From: Alphaproteobacteria bacterium
GTDB taxonomy: Bacteria; Pseudomonadota; Alphaproteobacteria; RF32; CAG-239
Direction: 5' to 3'
DNA length: 64,000 bases
Assembly: GCA_017635595.1 (NCBI GenBank)
Contig: JAGBLF010000026.1
Span: forward strand, 3,008 to 67,007
This document shows, one piece after another, positions 5,447 through 9,895 of the stretch; within the stretch, counting starts at the first letter, position 1; every line of letters begins with the position of its first letter. The notes beneath the pieces were generated by a model. That model saw only the letters and a program-made list of their open reading frames with translations. It made no database searches and had not been told where the DNA came from. Made by a program: the position numbers and the translations under genes.

Positions 5447-7318
5447 ATGAAAAATATTATATTAAAAGCTTTAAGCATAATTGTTGTTGCCGCAGCCGTC
5501 GTATATGCATGTATGCAAAGTTTGTATCCGAATCTGCATAAAGAAGAAAATCTTTCTTTGAACCCGCAGTTTGACAGCGCCGGTTATTGGAACACGCCTT
5601 CGTTTACGGTTAAAGAAAACAGTGACAGCACTTATTCCGTGTTTGGCAAAAATTCTGTTTACGGTGCATATTTGGCCGGTCGTATTGCGCATTTGCGCCA
5701 AGATTTTGACAATGCTGCCGAGTATTACAAAATCGTAGCCGAAAAAGATAAGGACAACGACAAAGTTAATCGTGCGACTTATGTTATACTGTCTTCTTTA
5801 GGTAAAATTGATGAAGCCGCTGTTTATGCCGCCAAGGAAATTGAAAGCGGACAAAGTGATACGTTGGCTCCGCTTGTTGTTGCCATTAAAGATTTTGCCG
5901 ACGGAGATTATGCAAAATCACGCCAAACCATAGGTACTTTAACGGATAAAATACATCAAATTCTGATTAACCCGCTTTTTGATGCCTGGACTTATGCCGG
6001 CGAAAAAAATGAAGAAGAGGCCTTAAAAAGCTTGGATAGAATCCATACCGAACCATCCGTTGTCGGCTTAAAATTAATGCATCAGGCCATGATATATGAT
6101 CTCTTGGGCAACACCGCTAAAGCCGAAGAAAAATTTGCCGAGCTTATTCAAAAACATCCACAAGAAGTAACTTACCGCAATTTGGAAATCATTGCCGATT
6201 TCTATGTCCGAAGCGGCAATAAAGATATGGCTCGCAAAATTTCAAGCCGATACAATGATAACAGTATGCTCGCGCTCTTGTTAAAAAATATCAATAACAA
6301 AATCGAAAATTCCGAACCGAATAAAGCCCCGATTATCGACACCCCGCAAAAAGGTTTGGCCGAGGCTTTATTCAATGTCGGCACAATGTTTCGCCTTTCT
6401 AACGGCGGCGCCGAATTTGCGCAAATATATATCGCCGCTTCGTCTTATTTGAACCCGTCTTACGATATTTCAAAAATTGCTCTGGCCAACGTTTTGGAAG
6501 AACTCGGATTAATTAAAGAAGCCAATAAATATTATGAGCAAATTCCGCAAGAATCCGGTTCGTATTTTATTGCGCAGATTAAGCGAATAGAAAACCTTAA
6601 TAATATCCAAGATTACGCCGAAGCCGAAAAAAGCTTGCGCCATTTACTGACCATATACCCGGACAACACCCAGTTGTTAAATGATTTGGGTGACATTATG
6701 GCTAATCAAAACAAACACGATGAGGCTATTAAAATTTATCTTAAAGCAATCGAAAACATTAAAGATGTTCAATATGATACCTGGCCGGTTTACTATGCTC
6801 TGGCCGTATCTTACCATCGTAGCAACCAAAAAGATTTGGCGGAAAGGTATATGCTTAAAGCTCTTGAGCTGAGTAATCGTAACGCCAACGTCTTAAACTA
6901 TTTAGGATACATGTGGCTGGATGAGGGCCGCAATATTGACCAGGCTGTCCAAATGATTCTCGACGCGTACACACAGTATCCGTATGAAGGGCATATTATA
7001 GACAGTTTGGGATGGACTTATTACCGTATCGGCAACTATACAAAGGCCATCGAATTTTTGGAACGGGCTGCCGATATGAACTCTGGTAATGCTGTCATTA
7101 ATGACCATTTAGGTGATGCTTATTGGTTTATAGGCCGCAGAAACGAGGCCGTTTTCCAGTGGAAACATGCGCTTGTGTTAAAAGAAGATGCCGAATCGCT
7201 CGATAAAAAAGCCGTTGAAGCTAAAATAGACGAAGGTTTACAGCAAAATAACATTTTGCAAGTAACCGATTCCGAGCTTTTGAAACAACTTGATAATTTA
7301 TCAATTGAAGAAAAATAA
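5447..7318 (+). CDS. TPR-repeat protein with N-terminal membrane anchor or signal
   Basis: Multiple TPR-like repeats (e.g. AEYYKIVAEKDKDN, ALELSNRNANVLNYLGYMWLDEG, AIEFLERAADMNSGNAVINDHLGDAYW). ATG at 5447 (MKNIILKALSIIVVAAAVVYA) is preferred over the track start at 5312, which overlaps the divergent UDG gene. Confidence 0.8.
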   Translation: MKNIILKALSIIVVAAAVVYACMQSLYPNLHKEENLSLNPQFDSAGYWNTPSFTVKENSDSTYSVFGKNSVYGAYLAGRIAHLRQDFDNAAEYYKIVAEKDKDNDKVNRATYVILSSLGKIDEAAVYAAKEIESGQSDTLAPLVVAIKDFADGDYAKSRQTIGTLTDKIHQILINPLFDAWTYAGEKNEEEALKSLDRIHTEPSVVGLKLMHQAMIYDLLGNTAKAEEKFAELIQKHPQEVTYRNLEIIADFYVRSGNKDMARKISSRYNDNSMLALLLKNINNKIENSEPNKAPIIDTPQKGLAEALFNVGTMFRLSNGGAEFAQIYIAASSYLNPSYDISKIALANVLEELGLIKEANKYYEQIPQESGSYFIAQIKRIENLNNIQDYAEAEKSLRHLLTIYPDNTQLLNDLGDIMANQNKHDEAIKIYLKAIENIKDVQYDTWPVYYALAVSYHRSNQKDLAERYMLKALELSNRNANVLNYLGYMWLDEGRNIDQAVQMILDAYTQYPYEGHIIDSLGWTYYRIGNYTKAIEFLERAADMNSGNAVINDHLGDAYWFIGRRNEAVFQWKHALVLKEDAESLDKKAVEAKIDEGLQQNNILQVTDSELLKQLDNLSIEEK

Positions 7319-7338: not shown

Positions 7339-7373
7339 CAGCCTCACCAAACAAATGGGGTGAGGCTGTTTTT
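7339..7373 (+). terminator. Rho-independent terminator after the TPR gene
   Basis: cagcctcacc (7339-7348) / ggtgaggctg (7359-7368), followed by ttttt. Confidence 0.7.
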
Positions 7374-7383
7374 ATTGATTATT

Positions 7384-7830
7384 TTAATGTTTGTAAGGGT
7401 GCGAAACCGTCCAACGGACAAAAATCGCTTTGCCTTTGCCGCGCATTTTGAGTTTTTCGGCGGCGGCATCGGCTGCTTCGGTCAAATCCACCGGCGGAGG
7501 TGTTGTCCAACTGCCGCCAATACGCTCGCATTTAAACTCGGCATCAACACCGGCCATGTTATGTTCATCGACATAAACTTTGCATACTTCATACGCTTTC
7601 ACACAGACGTCTTGCAAGCGTTTAGAATAATGTGCCTTCACAATAAGCATTCCCGGTGTTACGCGAAACATGGCTTGCTTTCCGTCTACAATTTCTTCTC
7701 GTTTAAAAACATGTAGTGCCTTGCACTTTTCGCCATTCGCTGAGGCAATAACTGTCGCAAAATCTCTTTCACCCTCTTCACAAAGTGCAATGTGCCCTTT
7801 GTTAGTCTTGACTGCTAAAAATGTAATCAT
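7384..7830 (-). CDS. Hypothetical protein, one copy of an unrecognised ~125-aa domain
   Basis: 148-aa ORF in a visibly more G+C-rich stretch. Homologous by eye to each half of the 7965-8786 product (QAMFRV...VCVKAYEV...YVD...GGSW...AAAEKL). Has its own promoter-like and terminator-like signals. Confidence 0.7.
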   Translation of the reverse strand: MITFLAVKTNKGHIALCEEGERDFATVIASANGEKCKALHVFKREEIVDGKQAMFRVTPGMLIVKAHYSKRLQDVCVKAYEVCKVYVDEHNMAGVDAEFKCERIGGSWTTPPPVDLTEAADAAAEKLKMRGKGKAIFVRWTVSHPYKH

Positions 7831-7869
7831 ATCTTGATAATTTTAATAATTATTCATTTGATTCTCTTT

Positions 7870-7898
7870 ACTATAAGTTATTTTGTGTATTTTGTCAA
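7870..7898 (-). promoter_or_regulatory. Sigma-70-like promoter for 7384-7830
   Basis: On the minus strand, TTGACA (7893-7898), a 17-nt spacer, then TATAGT (7870-7875), about 40 nt upstream of the ATG. Confidence 0.45.
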
Positions 7899-7929
7899 TG
7901 TTTTAGTCAAAAAAAATTTAAAATGCAAA

Positions 7930-7954
7930 GTCCGCCTGCCTTACGCAGACGGAC
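7930..7954 (-). terminator. Terminator candidate after 7965-8786
   Basis: gtccgcctgc (7930-7939) / gcagacggac (7945-7954) with one mismatch. On the minus strand it is followed by a T-rich tract. Confidence 0.5.
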
Positions 7955-7964
7955 CTTGCTTTGT

Positions 7965-8786
7965 TTACTTCATCTTTGAATAAAGCGTTTCGGTGTCGGT
8001 CATCTCTATTTTCTCAATTAAGAGTTCGACGACCGGCCGCAGGTTACGAGAAACCTCCTGCTGCCACTTGCCGTTGAGACAATGGTTAAGAAGTTCGACC
8101 TCTGCCTGGGGACCGCCTTTGTCAACGAAGGTACGAACCACATTGTAGATGGAAATCTCCTGACCCTCGTCCGTCTGGTGACCGCGCAAGATTTTGTACC
8201 TGCCGAAAACGGGGACAATTGCTTGTCGACCGGGCTTGCCTTTTTCTTTGTCAAAAACGAAGACTGAAGTTGCTTCGCCACCGCCGGGCGTACAGACAAT
8301 TGTCGATTCGTCGGCGCCGCAATTTTCGTACAGGGCAAAGAAGCCTTTCTTAGTGCGGGACAGCGGCAAAGTTGCCGGCATATTTGCCACAACGCGTTGG
8401 CTAAAACCACGCAACTTGGATAGCAGGACATCCACCATATAGGATAGTTCTTTTGGCAGCTGCTTGTTCCACATACCGTTTTGCAGCTTGCATATCTCCT
8501 CCACTTTCACCAGGTGAACACCATGGCTGTTGGTAAAAGGATAAACAACTCTGTATACGGAAACCGTCTCGCCTTCGCCACTGGTTCCAATCAAAACATA
8601 TTGATTTTTCTTTACGGGAACCAGTGCTTGCTTCGGAGCCGCAACAGGTTTGTTCAAGTGCATGGCATTGGCGGGGCTACCATCTGCTTTGCAGATAATA
8701 ACCGCTTCATCTTTGCTTTGCGTTTCCCACAGAGCATAGACATTTTTCTCTGTTTTAAACGCTTTTAAATACTGATTCATAGGCAT
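7965..8786 (-). CDS. Hypothetical protein, tandem duplication of the same unrecognised domain
   Basis: 273 aa. Residues ~14-125 and ~146-260 align to each other (FALYE/YALWE ... QA[LI]VPV ... [VI]S[VI]Y.VV ... NG.W ... L[LI].K[LI]). CTG/CCC-rich codon usage unlike neighbouring genes. Confidence 0.75.
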   Translation of the reverse strand: MPMNQYLKAFKTEKNVYALWETQSKDEAVIICKADGSPANAMHLNKPVAAPKQALVPVKKNQYVLIGTSGEGETVSVYRVVYPFTNSHGVHLVKVEEICKLQNGMWNKQLPKELSYMVDVLLSKLRGFSQRVVANMPATLPLSRTKKGFFALYENCGADESTIVCTPGGGEATSVFVFDKEKGKPGRQAIVPVFGRYKILRGHQTDEGQEISIYNVVRTFVDKGGPQAEVELLNHCLNGKWQQEVSRNLRPVVELLIEKIEMTDTETLYSKMK

Positions 8787-8856
8787 GAATTTTATTCTTG
8801 ATTGCCGAAGCGCTCAAGAGGGTTAATAATTATCTAAATAAATTCTTGTTGAAGGC

Positions 8857-8884
8857 AGTATATCATAGACAATATTTTTGTCAA
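8857..8884 (-). promoter_or_regulatory. Sigma-70-like promoter for 7965-8786
   Basis: On the minus strand, TTGACA (8879-8884), a 16-nt spacer, then TATACT (8857-8862). Confidence 0.45.
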
Positions 8885-8909
8885 GTTACAAAAAGCACAG
8901 GGTATAAAA

Positions 8910-8937
8910 AAATCCGCCGAATTTCTTCGACGGATTT
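8910..8937 (-). terminator. Terminator after secF
   Basis: aaatccgccgaa (8910-8921) / ttcgacggattt (8926-8937) with one mismatch. A T-run follows on the minus strand. Confidence 0.6.
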
Positions 8938-8956
8938 CTTTTAAAAGTCTATATTA

Positions 8957-9895
8957 CTAGCCGACATTGCCGAACGGATTTACGTCTTCTTCTTTCGGTT
9001 GTTTGTGCAAATCAAAGAAATTCAGCACCGGAACCGAAACAAATATGGAAGAATATGTACCGATAACAACACCTGCCGTAATAACAAACGCAAAACTGCG
9101 CAGTGCTTCACCGCCGAATACCAACAATGCAACCGAAGCAAGCAACGTCGTAATGCTGGTTAAAATCGTACGTGAGAAAATATCGTTAATACTCTTGTTG
9201 AGCATATCATACTGCGGCATTTTTTTGTATTTTTGCAAATTTTCTCTGATACGGTCATATGTAACCACCGTATCATTAACCGAATAACCGGCCAAAGTCA
9301 GAATAGCGGCGATTGTCGTTAAGCTGAAATCAAAATGCATTATTGATAACAAGCCGACCGTAATCAATATATCATGGAACAAGCCGATAAGTGCGCCCAG
9401 AGCAAAACGCCATTCAAAACGAAACCAGATATACAAGCTGATGGCTATGCAGGCAAACACCGAAGCCAAAACGCCGGATGTTTTTAATTCATCACCGACC
9501 TGAGGACCGACGGATTCTATACGTTCAAACGTAAATCTATCGCCTAAAATTTCCTTAATTTGATTAACGGCAATACGTTGACTTTCTTCATCAGCATTAT
9601 TTGCTTGTGCGCGAATCATCAACTGTTCGTTATTCTGGCCGATAGATTGCAGATTCAATTCATCAAGTTTTAATACCGATAAATCTTTACGAACCTGATC
9701 TACATTGACCGGACCTTTTTTACTCTGAACCTCAATTAATACACCGCCGGAGAAATCAATACCCCAGTTGAAGCCTTTGACAACCATACTGGCAATAGAA
9801 GCGGCGATCAGCACTGCCGATATAGCATATGCTATACGGCGGTATTTTAAGAAATCGATTGTGGTATCTTTAATAATCCAACTAAACATTTTCAT
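8957..9895 (-). CDS. secF: Protein translocase subunit SecF
   Basis: 312 aa with six TM helices and the SecD/SecF family C-terminal block. Immediately downstream of secD. Confidence 0.9.
   Translation of the reverse strand: MKMFSWIIKDTTIDFLKYRRIAYAISAVLIAASIASMVVKGFNWGIDFSGGVLIEVQSKKGPVNVDQVRKDLSVLKLDELNLQSIGQNNEQLMIRAQANNADEESQRIAVNQIKEILGDRFTFERIESVGPQVGDELKTSGVLASVFACIAISLYIWFRFEWRFALGALIGLFHDILITVGLLSIMHFDFSLTTIAAILTLAGYSVNDTVVTYDRIRENLQKYKKMPQYDMLNKSINDIFSRTILTSITTLLASVALLVFGGEALRSFAFVITAGVVIGTYSSIFVSVPVLNFFDLHKQPKEEDVNPFGNVG

What the first reader, a model, noticed from the sequence alone, without database searches (positions are those of the whole stretch)
7384..8786. Two-gene islet carrying three copies of an unrecognised ~125-aa domain between the TPR gene and secF
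The 273-aa product is an internal duplication (aa ~14-125 versus ~146-260), and the adjacent 148-aa product is a third copy.

Shared pattern: [FY][FAL]A[LV]...(7-10)...[IV].C ... QA[LIM][VF][PR]V ... [VI].[VIK].Y.V ... [FY]VD ... G.W ... L......EK[LI].

The segment is visibly more G+C-rich than its neighbours and uses CTG and CCC, which are rare in the backbone. Each gene has its own near-consensus sigma-70 promoter (TTGACA-17-TATAGT and TTGACA-16-TATACT) and its own hairpin terminator, but no SD.

I see no catalytic motif, signal peptide or TM segment, so these look like cytoplasmic binding or structural modules. Independently transcribed paralogs inserted into a housekeeping neighbourhood are typical of small accessory functions such as phage-related or anti-defence/defence accessories. 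That functional idea is pure inference.
Basis: partly seen in the sequence, partly recalled or inferred. Interest (0 to 1): 0.7.

Follow-up and report, generated by a model that had tools for sequence, protein, structure and literature searches.

The report
Domesticated phage-family domain, three chromosomal copies
Two small, separately transcribed genes next to secF in an uncultured rumen alphaproteobacterium carry three old copies of a protein domain with no name or known function, whose other relatives sit mostly on phages and other mobile elements, and the bacterial copies have lost that family's probable zinc site.

Summary
Gene A (7965-8786, minus strand, 273 aa) is a tandem duplication of a ~130-aa domain. 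Gene B (7384-7830, minus strand, 148 aa) is a third copy. Pairwise BLASTP gives 22-31% identity and E 1e-17 to 4e-12.

Each gene has a near-consensus sigma-70 promoter and a hairpin terminator. Neither has an SD, a TM segment or a signal peptide.

The domain matches nothing in Pfam, PHROGs, NCBIfam, PADLOC or PDB sequences. A profile search of 1.84 billion proteins found 255 relatives, mostly ~145-aa single-domain proteins. Every inspected context outside this clade was a phage, prophage or integrative element.

AlphaFold models are confident (pLDDT 95 and 89): eight β-strands plus a C-terminal helix. Foldseek found no significant PDB or BFVD match.

Most phage members carry a covarying His/Cys cluster, probably a zinc site. 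All three window copies lack it.

Gene A is vertically inherited and syntenic in one subclade, with dN/dS about 0.07-0.15. One relative has an empty site, and another has a single-domain gene there. Gene B is dispensable.

The best reading is a domesticated, moron-like phage gene that expanded in place and now encodes non-catalytic binding modules. The function is unknown.

The parts
7965..8786 (-). Gene A: 273-aa ORF (probably 271 aa from the ATG at 8780) encoding two tandem copies of the domain
   Evidence: ORF list; 8 orthologous clusters at 92-46% identity; dN/dS about 0.07-0.15 where dS could be estimated; AlphaFold pLDDT 88.6, pTM 0.71
8388..8780 (-). Gene A N-terminal domain copy (aa 3-133)
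   Evidence: Domain HMM hit, i-Evalue 1.8e-55; BLASTP against the other copies
7968..8381 (-). Gene A C-terminal domain copy (aa 136-273), with a conserved acidic tail EMTDTETLYSKM
   Evidence: Domain HMM hit, i-Evalue 2.1e-58; tail residues invariant in the orthologue alignment
7384..7830 (-). Gene B: 148-aa single-domain paralogue with a conserved basic tail MRGKGKAxFxRWT
   Evidence: ORF list; HMM hit 1.4e-50; orthologues at 57-77% identity; dN/dS 0.16-0.21; AlphaFold pLDDT 95.0, pTM 0.89
8857..8884 (-). Gene A promoter: TTGACA-16-TATACT with TG extended -10
   Evidence: 11/12 consensus match; TTGACA and the -10 hexamer conserved in all gene A loci, including the 46%-identity homologue L120
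8821..8830 (-). Conserved ATTATTAACC box in the gene A 5' UTR
   Evidence: Identical in six of the seven distinct upstream sequences aligned (ATTATTAATC in L003); ATATTAACC in L120
8796..8819 (-). 5' UTR hairpin (UCUUGA...UCAAGA, UUCG loop) directly after the box, about 10 nt before the ATG
   Evidence: Predicted in the MFE fold. Four lineages have different stems at the same position. Whole-UTR z-scores are not significant, and L120 has no hairpin
7925..7959 (-). Gene A intrinsic terminator: 15-bp stem followed by a T-rich tail
   Evidence: Terminator scan; an equivalent hairpin follows gene A in L001, L002, L006 and L008
7870..7898 (-). Gene B promoter: TTGACA-17-TATAGT
   Evidence: 11/12 consensus match; TTGACTAAA..ATTGACAAAA arrangement conserved in L006 and L008
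7339..7368 (.). Bidirectional terminator hairpin shared by gene B and the convergent TPR gene
   Evidence: Inverted repeat I12, 10-bp arms, 100% complementary; T-runs on both sides
8910..8938 (-). secF terminator hairpin, which marks the upstream edge of the islet
   Evidence: Read directly from the sequence; the same hairpin is conserved in L002, L006 and L008

Best explanation
The two genes are chromosomally fixed descendants of a small accessory gene family carried by phages and other mobile elements.

Origin and history:
- One copy, built like a phage 'moron' (its own strong promoter, the gene, its own terminator), entered the junction between secF and a convergent TPR gene in an ancestor of one subclade of uncultured rumen Alphaproteobacteria (inferred).
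- It then diversified in place. One relative still has a single-domain gene at that site (shown).
- In the window's lineage the gene duplicated in tandem and fused into the two-domain gene A (inferred).
- A further paralogue, gene B, sits beside it as a separate transcription unit and is dispensable (shown).

The proteins:
- They are soluble, basic, cytoplasmic proteins. Each domain has about eight β-strands and a C-terminal helix (shown by prediction).
- Most mobile-element relatives carry a covarying His/Cys cluster that probably binds zinc and staples the C-terminal tail to the barrel (inferred).
- All three window copies have lost this cluster. They keep the family-wide Glu, Gly, Ala, Trp and Lys.

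Likely mechanism (inferred):
- They act as non-enzymatic binding modules.
- Gene A is a covalent pseudo-dimer of a unit that otherwise works as a homodimer.
- They bind a nucleotide-like, nucleic-acid or protein ligand through the conserved Glu/Gln/Trp/Lys/Tyr surface.
- Given where the family lives, their most probable role is in phage-host conflict, for example competing with or neutralising the phage-borne homologue or its target. This last step is speculation.
For: Three copies of one domain.

Wider family:
- 255 proteins at E<=1e-3, mostly ~145-aa single-domain.
- Contexts are phage early or nucleotide-metabolism regions (Thy1, Tmk, Dam, RNase H, DNA methylase, GmrSD_N), a prophage with an S24 repressor and recombinases, and an integrative mobilisable element with relaxase, D5 primase and integrase.
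- 30 IMG/VR contigs carry it, as do four cultured Fusobacterium phages.

Cassette design: promoter-gene-terminator in the window and also in L017, with the promoter conserved in all loci.

Site states: empty in L019, where secF and TPR are 74 nt apart with one terminator; single-domain in L017; two-domain in L001 and L002; two-domain plus gene B in the window, L006, L008 and L118.

Selection: dN/dS about 0.07-0.15 for gene A and 0.16-0.21 for gene B, with no internal stops.

Gene B dispensable: absent in L001 and L002, split into two ORFs in L119.

Single clade: the NJ tree groups A-N, A-C, B and the L017-type gene apart from most phage members, and all share the Q-type signature.

His/Cys cluster:
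- His58 and Cys135 co-occur 141:6:12:37 (124:12:12:32 after redundancy filtering).
- Coupled pairs C132-H139, G22-C135, G23-C135 and G22-H58 rank 2, 3, 9 and 16 of 8,653 by MI-APC.
- The window copies have 0 of the 5 ligand positions.

Physical properties: pI about 9, no TM segment.

Structure: confident models.

Other tandem two-domain members exist in the family, for example P0018 and P0050.
Against: - No function is shown for any member of the family.
- No conserved partner gene was found across the phage loci.
- There is no defence or anti-defence library hit.
- The zinc site is inferred from conservation and covariation only. The covariation is not corrected for phylogeny, and I could not inspect the model coordinates.
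- The dimer or pseudo-dimer idea is inferred only from the recurrence of tandem fusions and a pTM of 0.71.
- The direction of transfer (mobile element to chromosome) is inferred from distribution, not from a rooted tree.
- The NJ tree is shallow and has no support values.
- Constant adjacency to secF could reflect a housekeeping link.
Confidence: 0.55

Rival explanations
1. The genes encode a lineage-specific housekeeping accessory of the YajC-SecDF translocon or of the neighbouring TPR protein. They would be cytoplasmic chaperone-like or adaptor modules that co-evolved with secF, and the presence of relatives on phages would be incidental.
For: Gene A sits directly after secF, between it and the TPR gene, in every genome that has it, down to 46% identity. 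It is under purifying selection.
Against: It has its own promoter and is separated from secF by a terminator. About 25 species-level relatives have SecF at 78-86% identity and an intact yajC-secDF operon but no copy of the domain near secF. L019 has secF and TPR adjacent with nothing between them. The secF 3' flank is a general synteny breakpoint, with 15 different first neighbours among 22 genomes. The rest of the family is on mobile elements with no Sec genes nearby.
Confidence: 0.1
2. The domain is an enzyme, for example a metal-dependent nuclease or hydrolase distantly like AFV1 ORF157. The family-wide Glu and Lys would be catalytic residues, and the window copies would be active enzymes acting on nucleic acid.
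For: The best PDB Foldseek hit of the gene B model is the AFV1 ORF157 nuclease (3ild; E 1.3e-2, probability 0.97, TM 0.41), and a related 'putative nuclease' appears among the BFVD hits. Glu20 is present in 219 of 219 domain instances, and Lys129 is nearly invariant. The proteins are basic. ORF157 uses a catalytic Glu (PMC4187194). The core His58/His134/Cys135 set in canonical members could be a three-ligand catalytic metal site.
Against: No fold hit reaches E<=1e-3 or TM 0.5. hhalign of the family profile against ORF157 gives probability 0.14%. ORF157 is described as a β-sheet with a layer of helices, whereas this domain has one terminal helix. The window copies have none of the His/Cys positions.
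Confidence: 0.12
3. The genes are decaying remnants of an old mobile-element insertion with no present function.
For: Gene B is absent from some close relatives and split by a frameshift in L119. The probable metal site has been lost. Neither gene has an SD.
Against: Gene A is intact in all nine sequences with dN/dS <=0.15 while synonymous sites are saturated. Gene B has dN/dS about 0.16-0.21. The promoters are conserved at near-consensus strength. The C-terminal tails of both proteins are strongly conserved.
Confidence: 0.06
4. The proteins are PilZ-like second-messenger receptors, with gene A resembling the two-barrel YcgR/MotI/MrkH proteins that bind c-di-GMP.
For: With the full two-domain model, the top PDB hits are MotI, MrkH, VCA0042 and YcgR. 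Like PilZ, each domain is a β-barrel-like unit ending in a helix.
Against: Those hits have E 2e-3 or worse and TM about 0.2. No PilZ protein is in the top 50 for the single-domain model. There is no Pfam PilZ or YcgR hit. No RxxxR or D/NxSxxG motif appears in the alignments.
Confidence: 0.04

Closest known systems
Phage 'morons' (autonomous promoter-gene-terminator cassettes inserted between conserved genes; concept recalled from the lambdoid phage literature, not tested against a database)
   Same: Each copy has its own near-consensus promoter and its own terminator. The cassette lies between two genes that are adjacent in a relative. The gene family is otherwise carried by phages and integrative elements.
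   Different: The cassettes are in a bacterial chromosome among housekeeping genes, not in a prophage. They are vertically inherited over a whole subclade and have expanded to three domain copies, including a fusion.
AFV1 ORF157 nuclease (PDB 3II2 / 3ILD)
   Same: It is the best structural neighbour of the gene B model (probability 0.97). Both are small viral proteins built on a β-sheet, and both have an important Glu.
   Different: TM is only 0.41, rmsd 7.2 A and E 1.3e-2. There is no profile similarity (hhalign probability 0.14%). The helix content differs, and equivalence of the catalytic residue could not be tested.
Two-barrel PilZ proteins (YcgR, MotI/DgrA, MrkH)
   Same: Two tandem β-rich domains in a protein of about 230-270 aa. 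They are the top hits for the full gene A model.
   Different: TM is about 0.2. The PilZ motifs and the Pfam match are absent, and the single-domain model does not retrieve PilZ.
Small phage anti-defence 'sponge' proteins such as Tad1, Tad2 and Acb2 (comparison from memory, about how it might work, not about membership)
   Same: Small, soluble, non-enzymatic-looking proteins encoded singly in phage early or accessory regions, with strong expression signals and a few invariant aromatic and charged residues.
   Different: No sequence or fold similarity to any solved structure, and the PDB copy searched runs to April 2026. No ligand is known, and here the genes sit in a bacterial chromosome.

Membership tests
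Unnamed mobile-element-borne 'WE...W...K' domain family (255 members) | Significant match to the family profile over the whole ~130-aa domain | tested here: met
   With the wide-family HMM, A-N scores 1.1e-23, A-C 4.4e-27 and B 2.7e-34. The reciprocal search, with a profile built only from the alphaproteobacterial copies, retrieved the wide family.
Unnamed mobile-element-borne 'WE...W...K' domain family (255 members) | Family-wide core residues: Glu20, Gly39, Ala59, Trp111, Lys129 | tested here: met
   All are present in all three window copies.
Unnamed mobile-element-borne 'WE...W...K' domain family (255 members) | His/Cys cluster (His58, Cys132, His134, Cys135, His139) and the GG loop of the canonical subgroup | tested here: not met
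   The window copies read Q-G-S-Q-gap, Q-M-D-T-Y and Q-M-G-K-I at these five positions. They belong to a 'Q-type' minority with 0 of 5 ligand positions.
Unnamed mobile-element-borne 'WE...W...K' domain family (255 members) | Location on a phage or other mobile element | tested here: not met
   The window neighbours are suf, LysM-M23, yajC-secDF, TPR, UDG and ExbBD. No integrase or phage genes are nearby.
Phage moron-type cassette | Own promoter and own terminator around a single gene | tested here: met
   These are consensus matches and conserved footprints; transcription itself was not measured.
Phage moron-type cassette | Inserted between genes that are adjacent in related genomes | tested here: met
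   In L019, secF and TPR are separated by 74 nt containing one terminator.
Phage moron-type cassette | Composition different from the host backbone | tested here: inconclusive
   Gene A is +1.5 to +1.9 sd in GC and GC3, within the range of other genes. Gene B is not different.
PilZ domain (c-di-GMP receptor) | Pfam PilZ profile match and the RxxxR / D/NxSxxG motifs | tested here: not met
   No Pfam hit. The motifs are absent from the alignments.
PilZ domain (c-di-GMP receptor) | Fold match to solved PilZ domains | tested here: not met
   TM is about 0.2 for the two-domain model. No PilZ appears in the top 50 for the single domain.
AFV1 ORF157 nuclease class | Fold match (TM >= 0.5, significant E-value) | tested here: not met
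   Best hit 3ild: E 1.3e-2, TM 0.41, rmsd 7.2 A.
AFV1 ORF157 nuclease class | Sequence or profile similarity | tested here: not met
   hhalign probability 0.14%, E 0.42.
AFV1 ORF157 nuclease class | Catalytic Glu86 equivalent in the same structural position; nuclease activity | not testable with these tools
   The model coordinates and the structural alignment are not exposed, and no assay is possible.
Known anti-phage defence system components (PADLOC 2.0) | Profile match to a defence protein model | tested here: not met
   No hit for the window proteins. Only three isolated single-member hits among 86 family members.

The most novel reading that the evidence does not exclude
The domain is a new protein fold that defines a new family of mobile-element accessory proteins held together by a zinc site. 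The rumen alphaproteobacterial chromosome has captured zinc-free copies, one of them fused into a pseudo-dimer, and uses them as a constitutive single-gene defence: decoys or competitors that bind the target or ligand of the phage-borne homologue. This would be a new kind of anti-phage immunity derived from a phage counter-defence gene.
Probability: 0.1. Interest if true: 0.75.

Novelty: new variant of a known kind. Interest (0 to 1): 0.5.

Why it matters
The finding brings to light a protein family that no database names. It has at least 255 clusters at 50% identity, confident structure predictions and no significant structural neighbour. It is carried by gut, rumen and oral phages, including phages of Fusobacterium nucleatum.

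The locus also shows, in related genomes, the successive states of one site: empty, one domain, a fused two-domain gene, and a further paralogue with later decay. That is a clean natural series for studying how bacteria domesticate phage accessory genes.

The contrast between phage copies with the His/Cys cluster and chromosomal copies without it gives a direct experimental handle on what the family does.

Tried and rejected
- Single-sequence scans of both proteins against Pfam, PHROGs, NCBIfam, PADLOC and PDB sequences found nothing meaningful.
- The same libraries run on 53 or 86 members of the wider family gave only scattered single-member hits.
- The family profile against PDB sequences gave only a chance GroES segment, E 1.3.
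- Ten long fusion proteins of the family carry no Pfam domain, so fusions gave no functional clue.
- Searching genome contigs with gene A alone found nothing, because the peptide patterns need exact matches. I used SecF as an anchor instead.
- The 86-sequence alignment was too diverse for a viral-contig scan. An 11-sequence subset worked.
- Conserved-neighbour analysis over 36 phage loci found no partner shared beyond one group of related phages.
- PilZ lead: rejected.
- AFV1-157 lead: rejected as membership. The original paper, PMC2863821, is not held.
- The 14-nt direct repeat bracketing gene B (7375-7388 / 7834-7847) is not conserved in L006 or L008, so it is probably chance.
- A CtrA-box reading of the TTAACC motif did not fit across the loci (read directly from the sequences).
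- RNAalifold on the 5' UTRs found no consensus structure because MAFFT did not align the stems.
- The plasmid collection has no family member. Gene B itself has no match in cultured phages.
- Rfam finds nothing in the window.
- The literature on the JD-Fnp phages gives no function for the homologue.
Full report
**1. What is in the sequence**

The interval holds two minus-strand ORFs: gene A (7965..8786, 273 aa) and gene B (7384..7830, 148 aa). They lie between secF (8957..9895, minus strand) and a convergent 623-aa TPR gene that ends at 7318.

The triplication is real:
- The N- and C-halves of gene A align at 31% identity (E 1e-17).
- Gene B aligns to the two halves at 27% (E 2e-11) and 25% (E 4e-12).
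- An alignment of the three paralogue groups from all orthologues keeps E, G, QA, Y, W and K invariant.
- A domain HMM finds exactly these three copies in the 64-kb window and no others.

The expression signals are as described:
- Both near-consensus promoters are present: TTGACA-16-TATACT with TG (8884..8857) and TTGACA-17-TATAGT (7898..7870).
- A 15-bp hairpin follows gene A.
- Gene B ends at a 10-bp hairpin (7339-7368) that it shares back-to-back with the TPR gene.
- Neither gene has an SD, although only 22 of 54 genes in the window have a strict one.

The composition claim is weaker than stated. Gene A is +1.5 to +1.9 sd in GC and GC3, gene B is ordinary, and the CTG/CCC excess rests on few codons. 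The products are basic (pI about 9) and have no hydrophobic segment.

**2. Organism and distribution at the locus**

SecF used as an anchor retrieves about 27 species-level MAGs at 78-99% identity. All are uncultured Alphaproteobacteria from the rumen or gut of cattle, sheep, goat, yak and roe deer, and some records are labelled Rhodospirillaceae.

Gene A has only eight homologous clusters among 5.8 billion proteins, at 92-46% identity, none of them named. Every one lies directly after secF, and wherever the contig extends further it is followed by the TPR gene.

Across the clade the secF-TPR site exists in four states:
- Empty in L019: 74 nt with one bidirectional terminator.
- A single-domain 147-aa gene with its own TTGACA-17-TAAAGT promoter and terminator in L017.
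- The two-domain gene alone in L001 and L002.
- The two-domain gene plus gene B in the window, L006, L008 and L118.

In L119, gene B is split into 78-aa and 91-aa ORFs. In the remaining relatives secF is followed by something else, with 15 different first-neighbour clusters in 22 genomes. The end of the yajC-secDF operon is therefore a variable junction.

**3. The genes are functional**

Where synonymous divergence could be estimated, dN/dS is 0.065-0.15 for gene A and 0.16-0.21 for gene B. No sequence has an internal stop. The promoter hexamers are conserved in all gene A loci, including the 46%-identity homologue. The C-terminal tails are highly conserved within each orthologue group: acidic EMTDTETLYSKM in gene A and basic MRGKGKAxFxRWT in gene B.

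**4. The wider family**

A profile of the three paralogue groups, searched exhaustively against 1.84 billion representative proteins, found 255 proteins at E<=1e-3 and 32 at E<=1e-10. Most are single-domain proteins of about 145 aa. Their signature is TKxGxPALWExGG ... GxAxIIA ... G ... NGxHALxPV ... IxxYxI ... GEW ... AxxAAxxKxxxYHCR.

No member has a consistent match in Pfam, PHROGs, NCBIfam or PADLOC. The profile matches no PDB sequence.

Every context I could inspect outside the alphaproteobacterial clade is a mobile element:
- A 130-kb phage-like contig with ProQ-like, DNA methylase and GmrSD_N genes.
- A prophage with S24 repressor, ORF6N, integrase and serine recombinase.
- Phage nucleotide-metabolism modules with Thy1, Tmk, Dam, RNase H or SNF2 helicase.
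- An integrative mobilisable element with relaxase, D5 primase and integrase.
- 30 IMG/VR contigs.
- Four cultured ~180-kb Fusobacterium nucleatum phages, where the domain is the N-terminal part of a 346-aa 'hypothetical protein'.

No partner gene is shared across unrelated phages. No plasmid in PLSDB carries the family.

**5. Structure**

- Gene A, from a 9-sequence alignment: pLDDT 88.6, pTM 0.71.
- Gene B, from an 86-sequence alignment: pLDDT 95.0, pTM 0.89.
- Each domain has about eight β-strands followed by one C-terminal helix. In gene B a short final strand follows the helix.

Foldseek found no match at E<=1e-3 in PDB or BFVD.

The full gene A model weakly retrieved two-barrel PilZ proteins (TM about 0.2), but the single-domain model did not, and the PilZ motifs are absent. 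I rejected that lead.

The best single-domain hit is the AFV1 ORF157 nuclease (E 1.3e-2, probability 0.97, TM 0.41). ORF157 is described as a β-sheet with one layer of helices and a catalytic Glu86 (PMC4187194). hhalign of the family profile against ORF157 gives probability 0.14%. It remains a loose resemblance only. AlphaFold DB was not available, so 'new fold' is possible but not established.

**6. A lost metal site**

Across 237 domain instances, Glu20 is present in 219 of 219, and Trp111 and Lys129 are nearly invariant.
- His58 and Cys135 occur together or not at all: 141:6:12:37, or 124:12:12:32 after filtering at 80% identity.
- By MI with APC correction, the pairs C132-H139, G22-C135, G23-C135 and G22-H58 rank 2, 3, 9 and 16 of 8,653, and H58-C135 ranks 47.
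- The commonest pattern at columns 58/132/134/135/139 is H-C-H-C-H.

I read this as a zinc site that ties the CxxC...H tail and the GG loop to strand 5. This is inferred. The covariation is not corrected for phylogeny and I could not examine the coordinates.

All three window copies, the L017 gene and all their orthologues have Gln at 58, no GG loop and none of the five His/Cys positions. This shared derived state, together with an NJ tree that groups them, favours one acquisition followed by duplication in place. The four groups are only 22-31% identical to one another, so the duplications are old.

**7. Interpretation**

The descriptive core is well supported. These are chromosomally fixed, expanded, zinc-free descendants of a mobile-element accessory family, built as autonomous promoter-gene-terminator cassettes at a variable junction.

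The mechanism is inferred: non-enzymatic binding modules, with gene A a covalent pseudo-dimer. Other tandem members exist. A role in phage-host conflict is plausible from where the family lives, but no result here shows it.

Rivals considered:
- A Sec- or TPR-linked housekeeping factor. Against it: the separate transcription unit, the absence from most relatives, and the empty site.
- An active enzyme or nuclease. The fold evidence is weak, and the His/Cys positions are missing.
- A decaying remnant. Purifying selection contradicts this for gene A.
- A PilZ-like receptor. Rejected.

**8. Novelty and score**

The family and its possible new fold are undescribed in every library I could query. 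That makes it more than an ordinary hypothetical protein, and the locus gives a neat domestication series. However, no function or system-level behaviour is demonstrated, and lineage-specific domesticated phage genes are a familiar phenomenon. I rate it a new variant of a known kind, with interest 0.5.

Noticed in passing
window ~8790-8960 (secF / gene A boundary), compared with L006 and L008: There is a sharp discontinuity in divergence. secF is almost identical at synonymous sites between the window and L006 (dS 0.055) and L008 (dS 0.143). In the same pairs, the adjacent gene A, gene B and TPR genes have dS from 1.3 up to saturated. Protein identities along the locus are mosaic: sufB 99, LysM 86, yajC 74, secD 95, secF 98, gene A 74, gene B 57, TPR 73 and ExbB-like 98%. 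This suggests recombination breakpoints, or chimeric assembly.
   Followed up: partly
window 8787-8850, minus strand (gene A 5' UTR); same region in L001, L002, L006, L008, L118, L120: A near-invariant ATTATTAACC box lies 35-45 nt before the start codon. It is followed directly by a hairpin whose stem sequence is completely different in four lineages (with UUCG or GAAA loops). The most divergent homologue has no hairpin. Whole-UTR folding z-scores are only -0.8 to -1.2, and RNAalifold found no consensus on the MAFFT alignment. The gene B UTR shares the palindrome AATAATTATT with the gene A UTR.
   Followed up: partly
L009-L034, immediately 3' of secF: The gene after secF differs in almost every related species: 15 different first-neighbour clusters in 22 genomes, many of them small unannotated ORFs of 70-175 aa. 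The end of the yajC-secDF operon therefore looks like a hotspot for rearrangement or gene gain in this family.
   Followed up: partly
L119:2463-2913: In the genome carrying P0005, gene B is split into two overlapping ORFs of 78 and 91 aa. This is a probable frameshift pseudogene, or a sequencing error.
   Followed up: no
L121:5980-7020 (Fusobacterium phage JD-Fnp1, JDFnp1_34): In the cultured Fusobacterium phages the domain is the N-terminal third of a 346-aa protein whose remainder is unannotated. It lies at the end of a run of small rightward genes, facing the head-protease and capsid block.
   Followed up: no
family alignment columns 58, 132, 134, 135, 139 (A5 / all.sto): Canonical family members fall into sub-patterns such as H-C-H-C-H (35 members), H-D-H-C-Y (15) and H-K-H-C-V (10). 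The number of possible metal ligands therefore varies from three to five within the family, which might separate structural from catalytic site variants.
   Followed up: partly
window 7375-7388 and 7834-7847: A 14-nt direct repeat (13 of 14 identical) brackets gene B exactly. It is not conserved around gene B in L006 or L008, so it is probably a chance AT-rich match and not an insertion scar.
   Followed up: yes
window 1-64000: No Rfam family reaches its gathering score anywhere in the 64-kb window on either strand.
   Followed up: no
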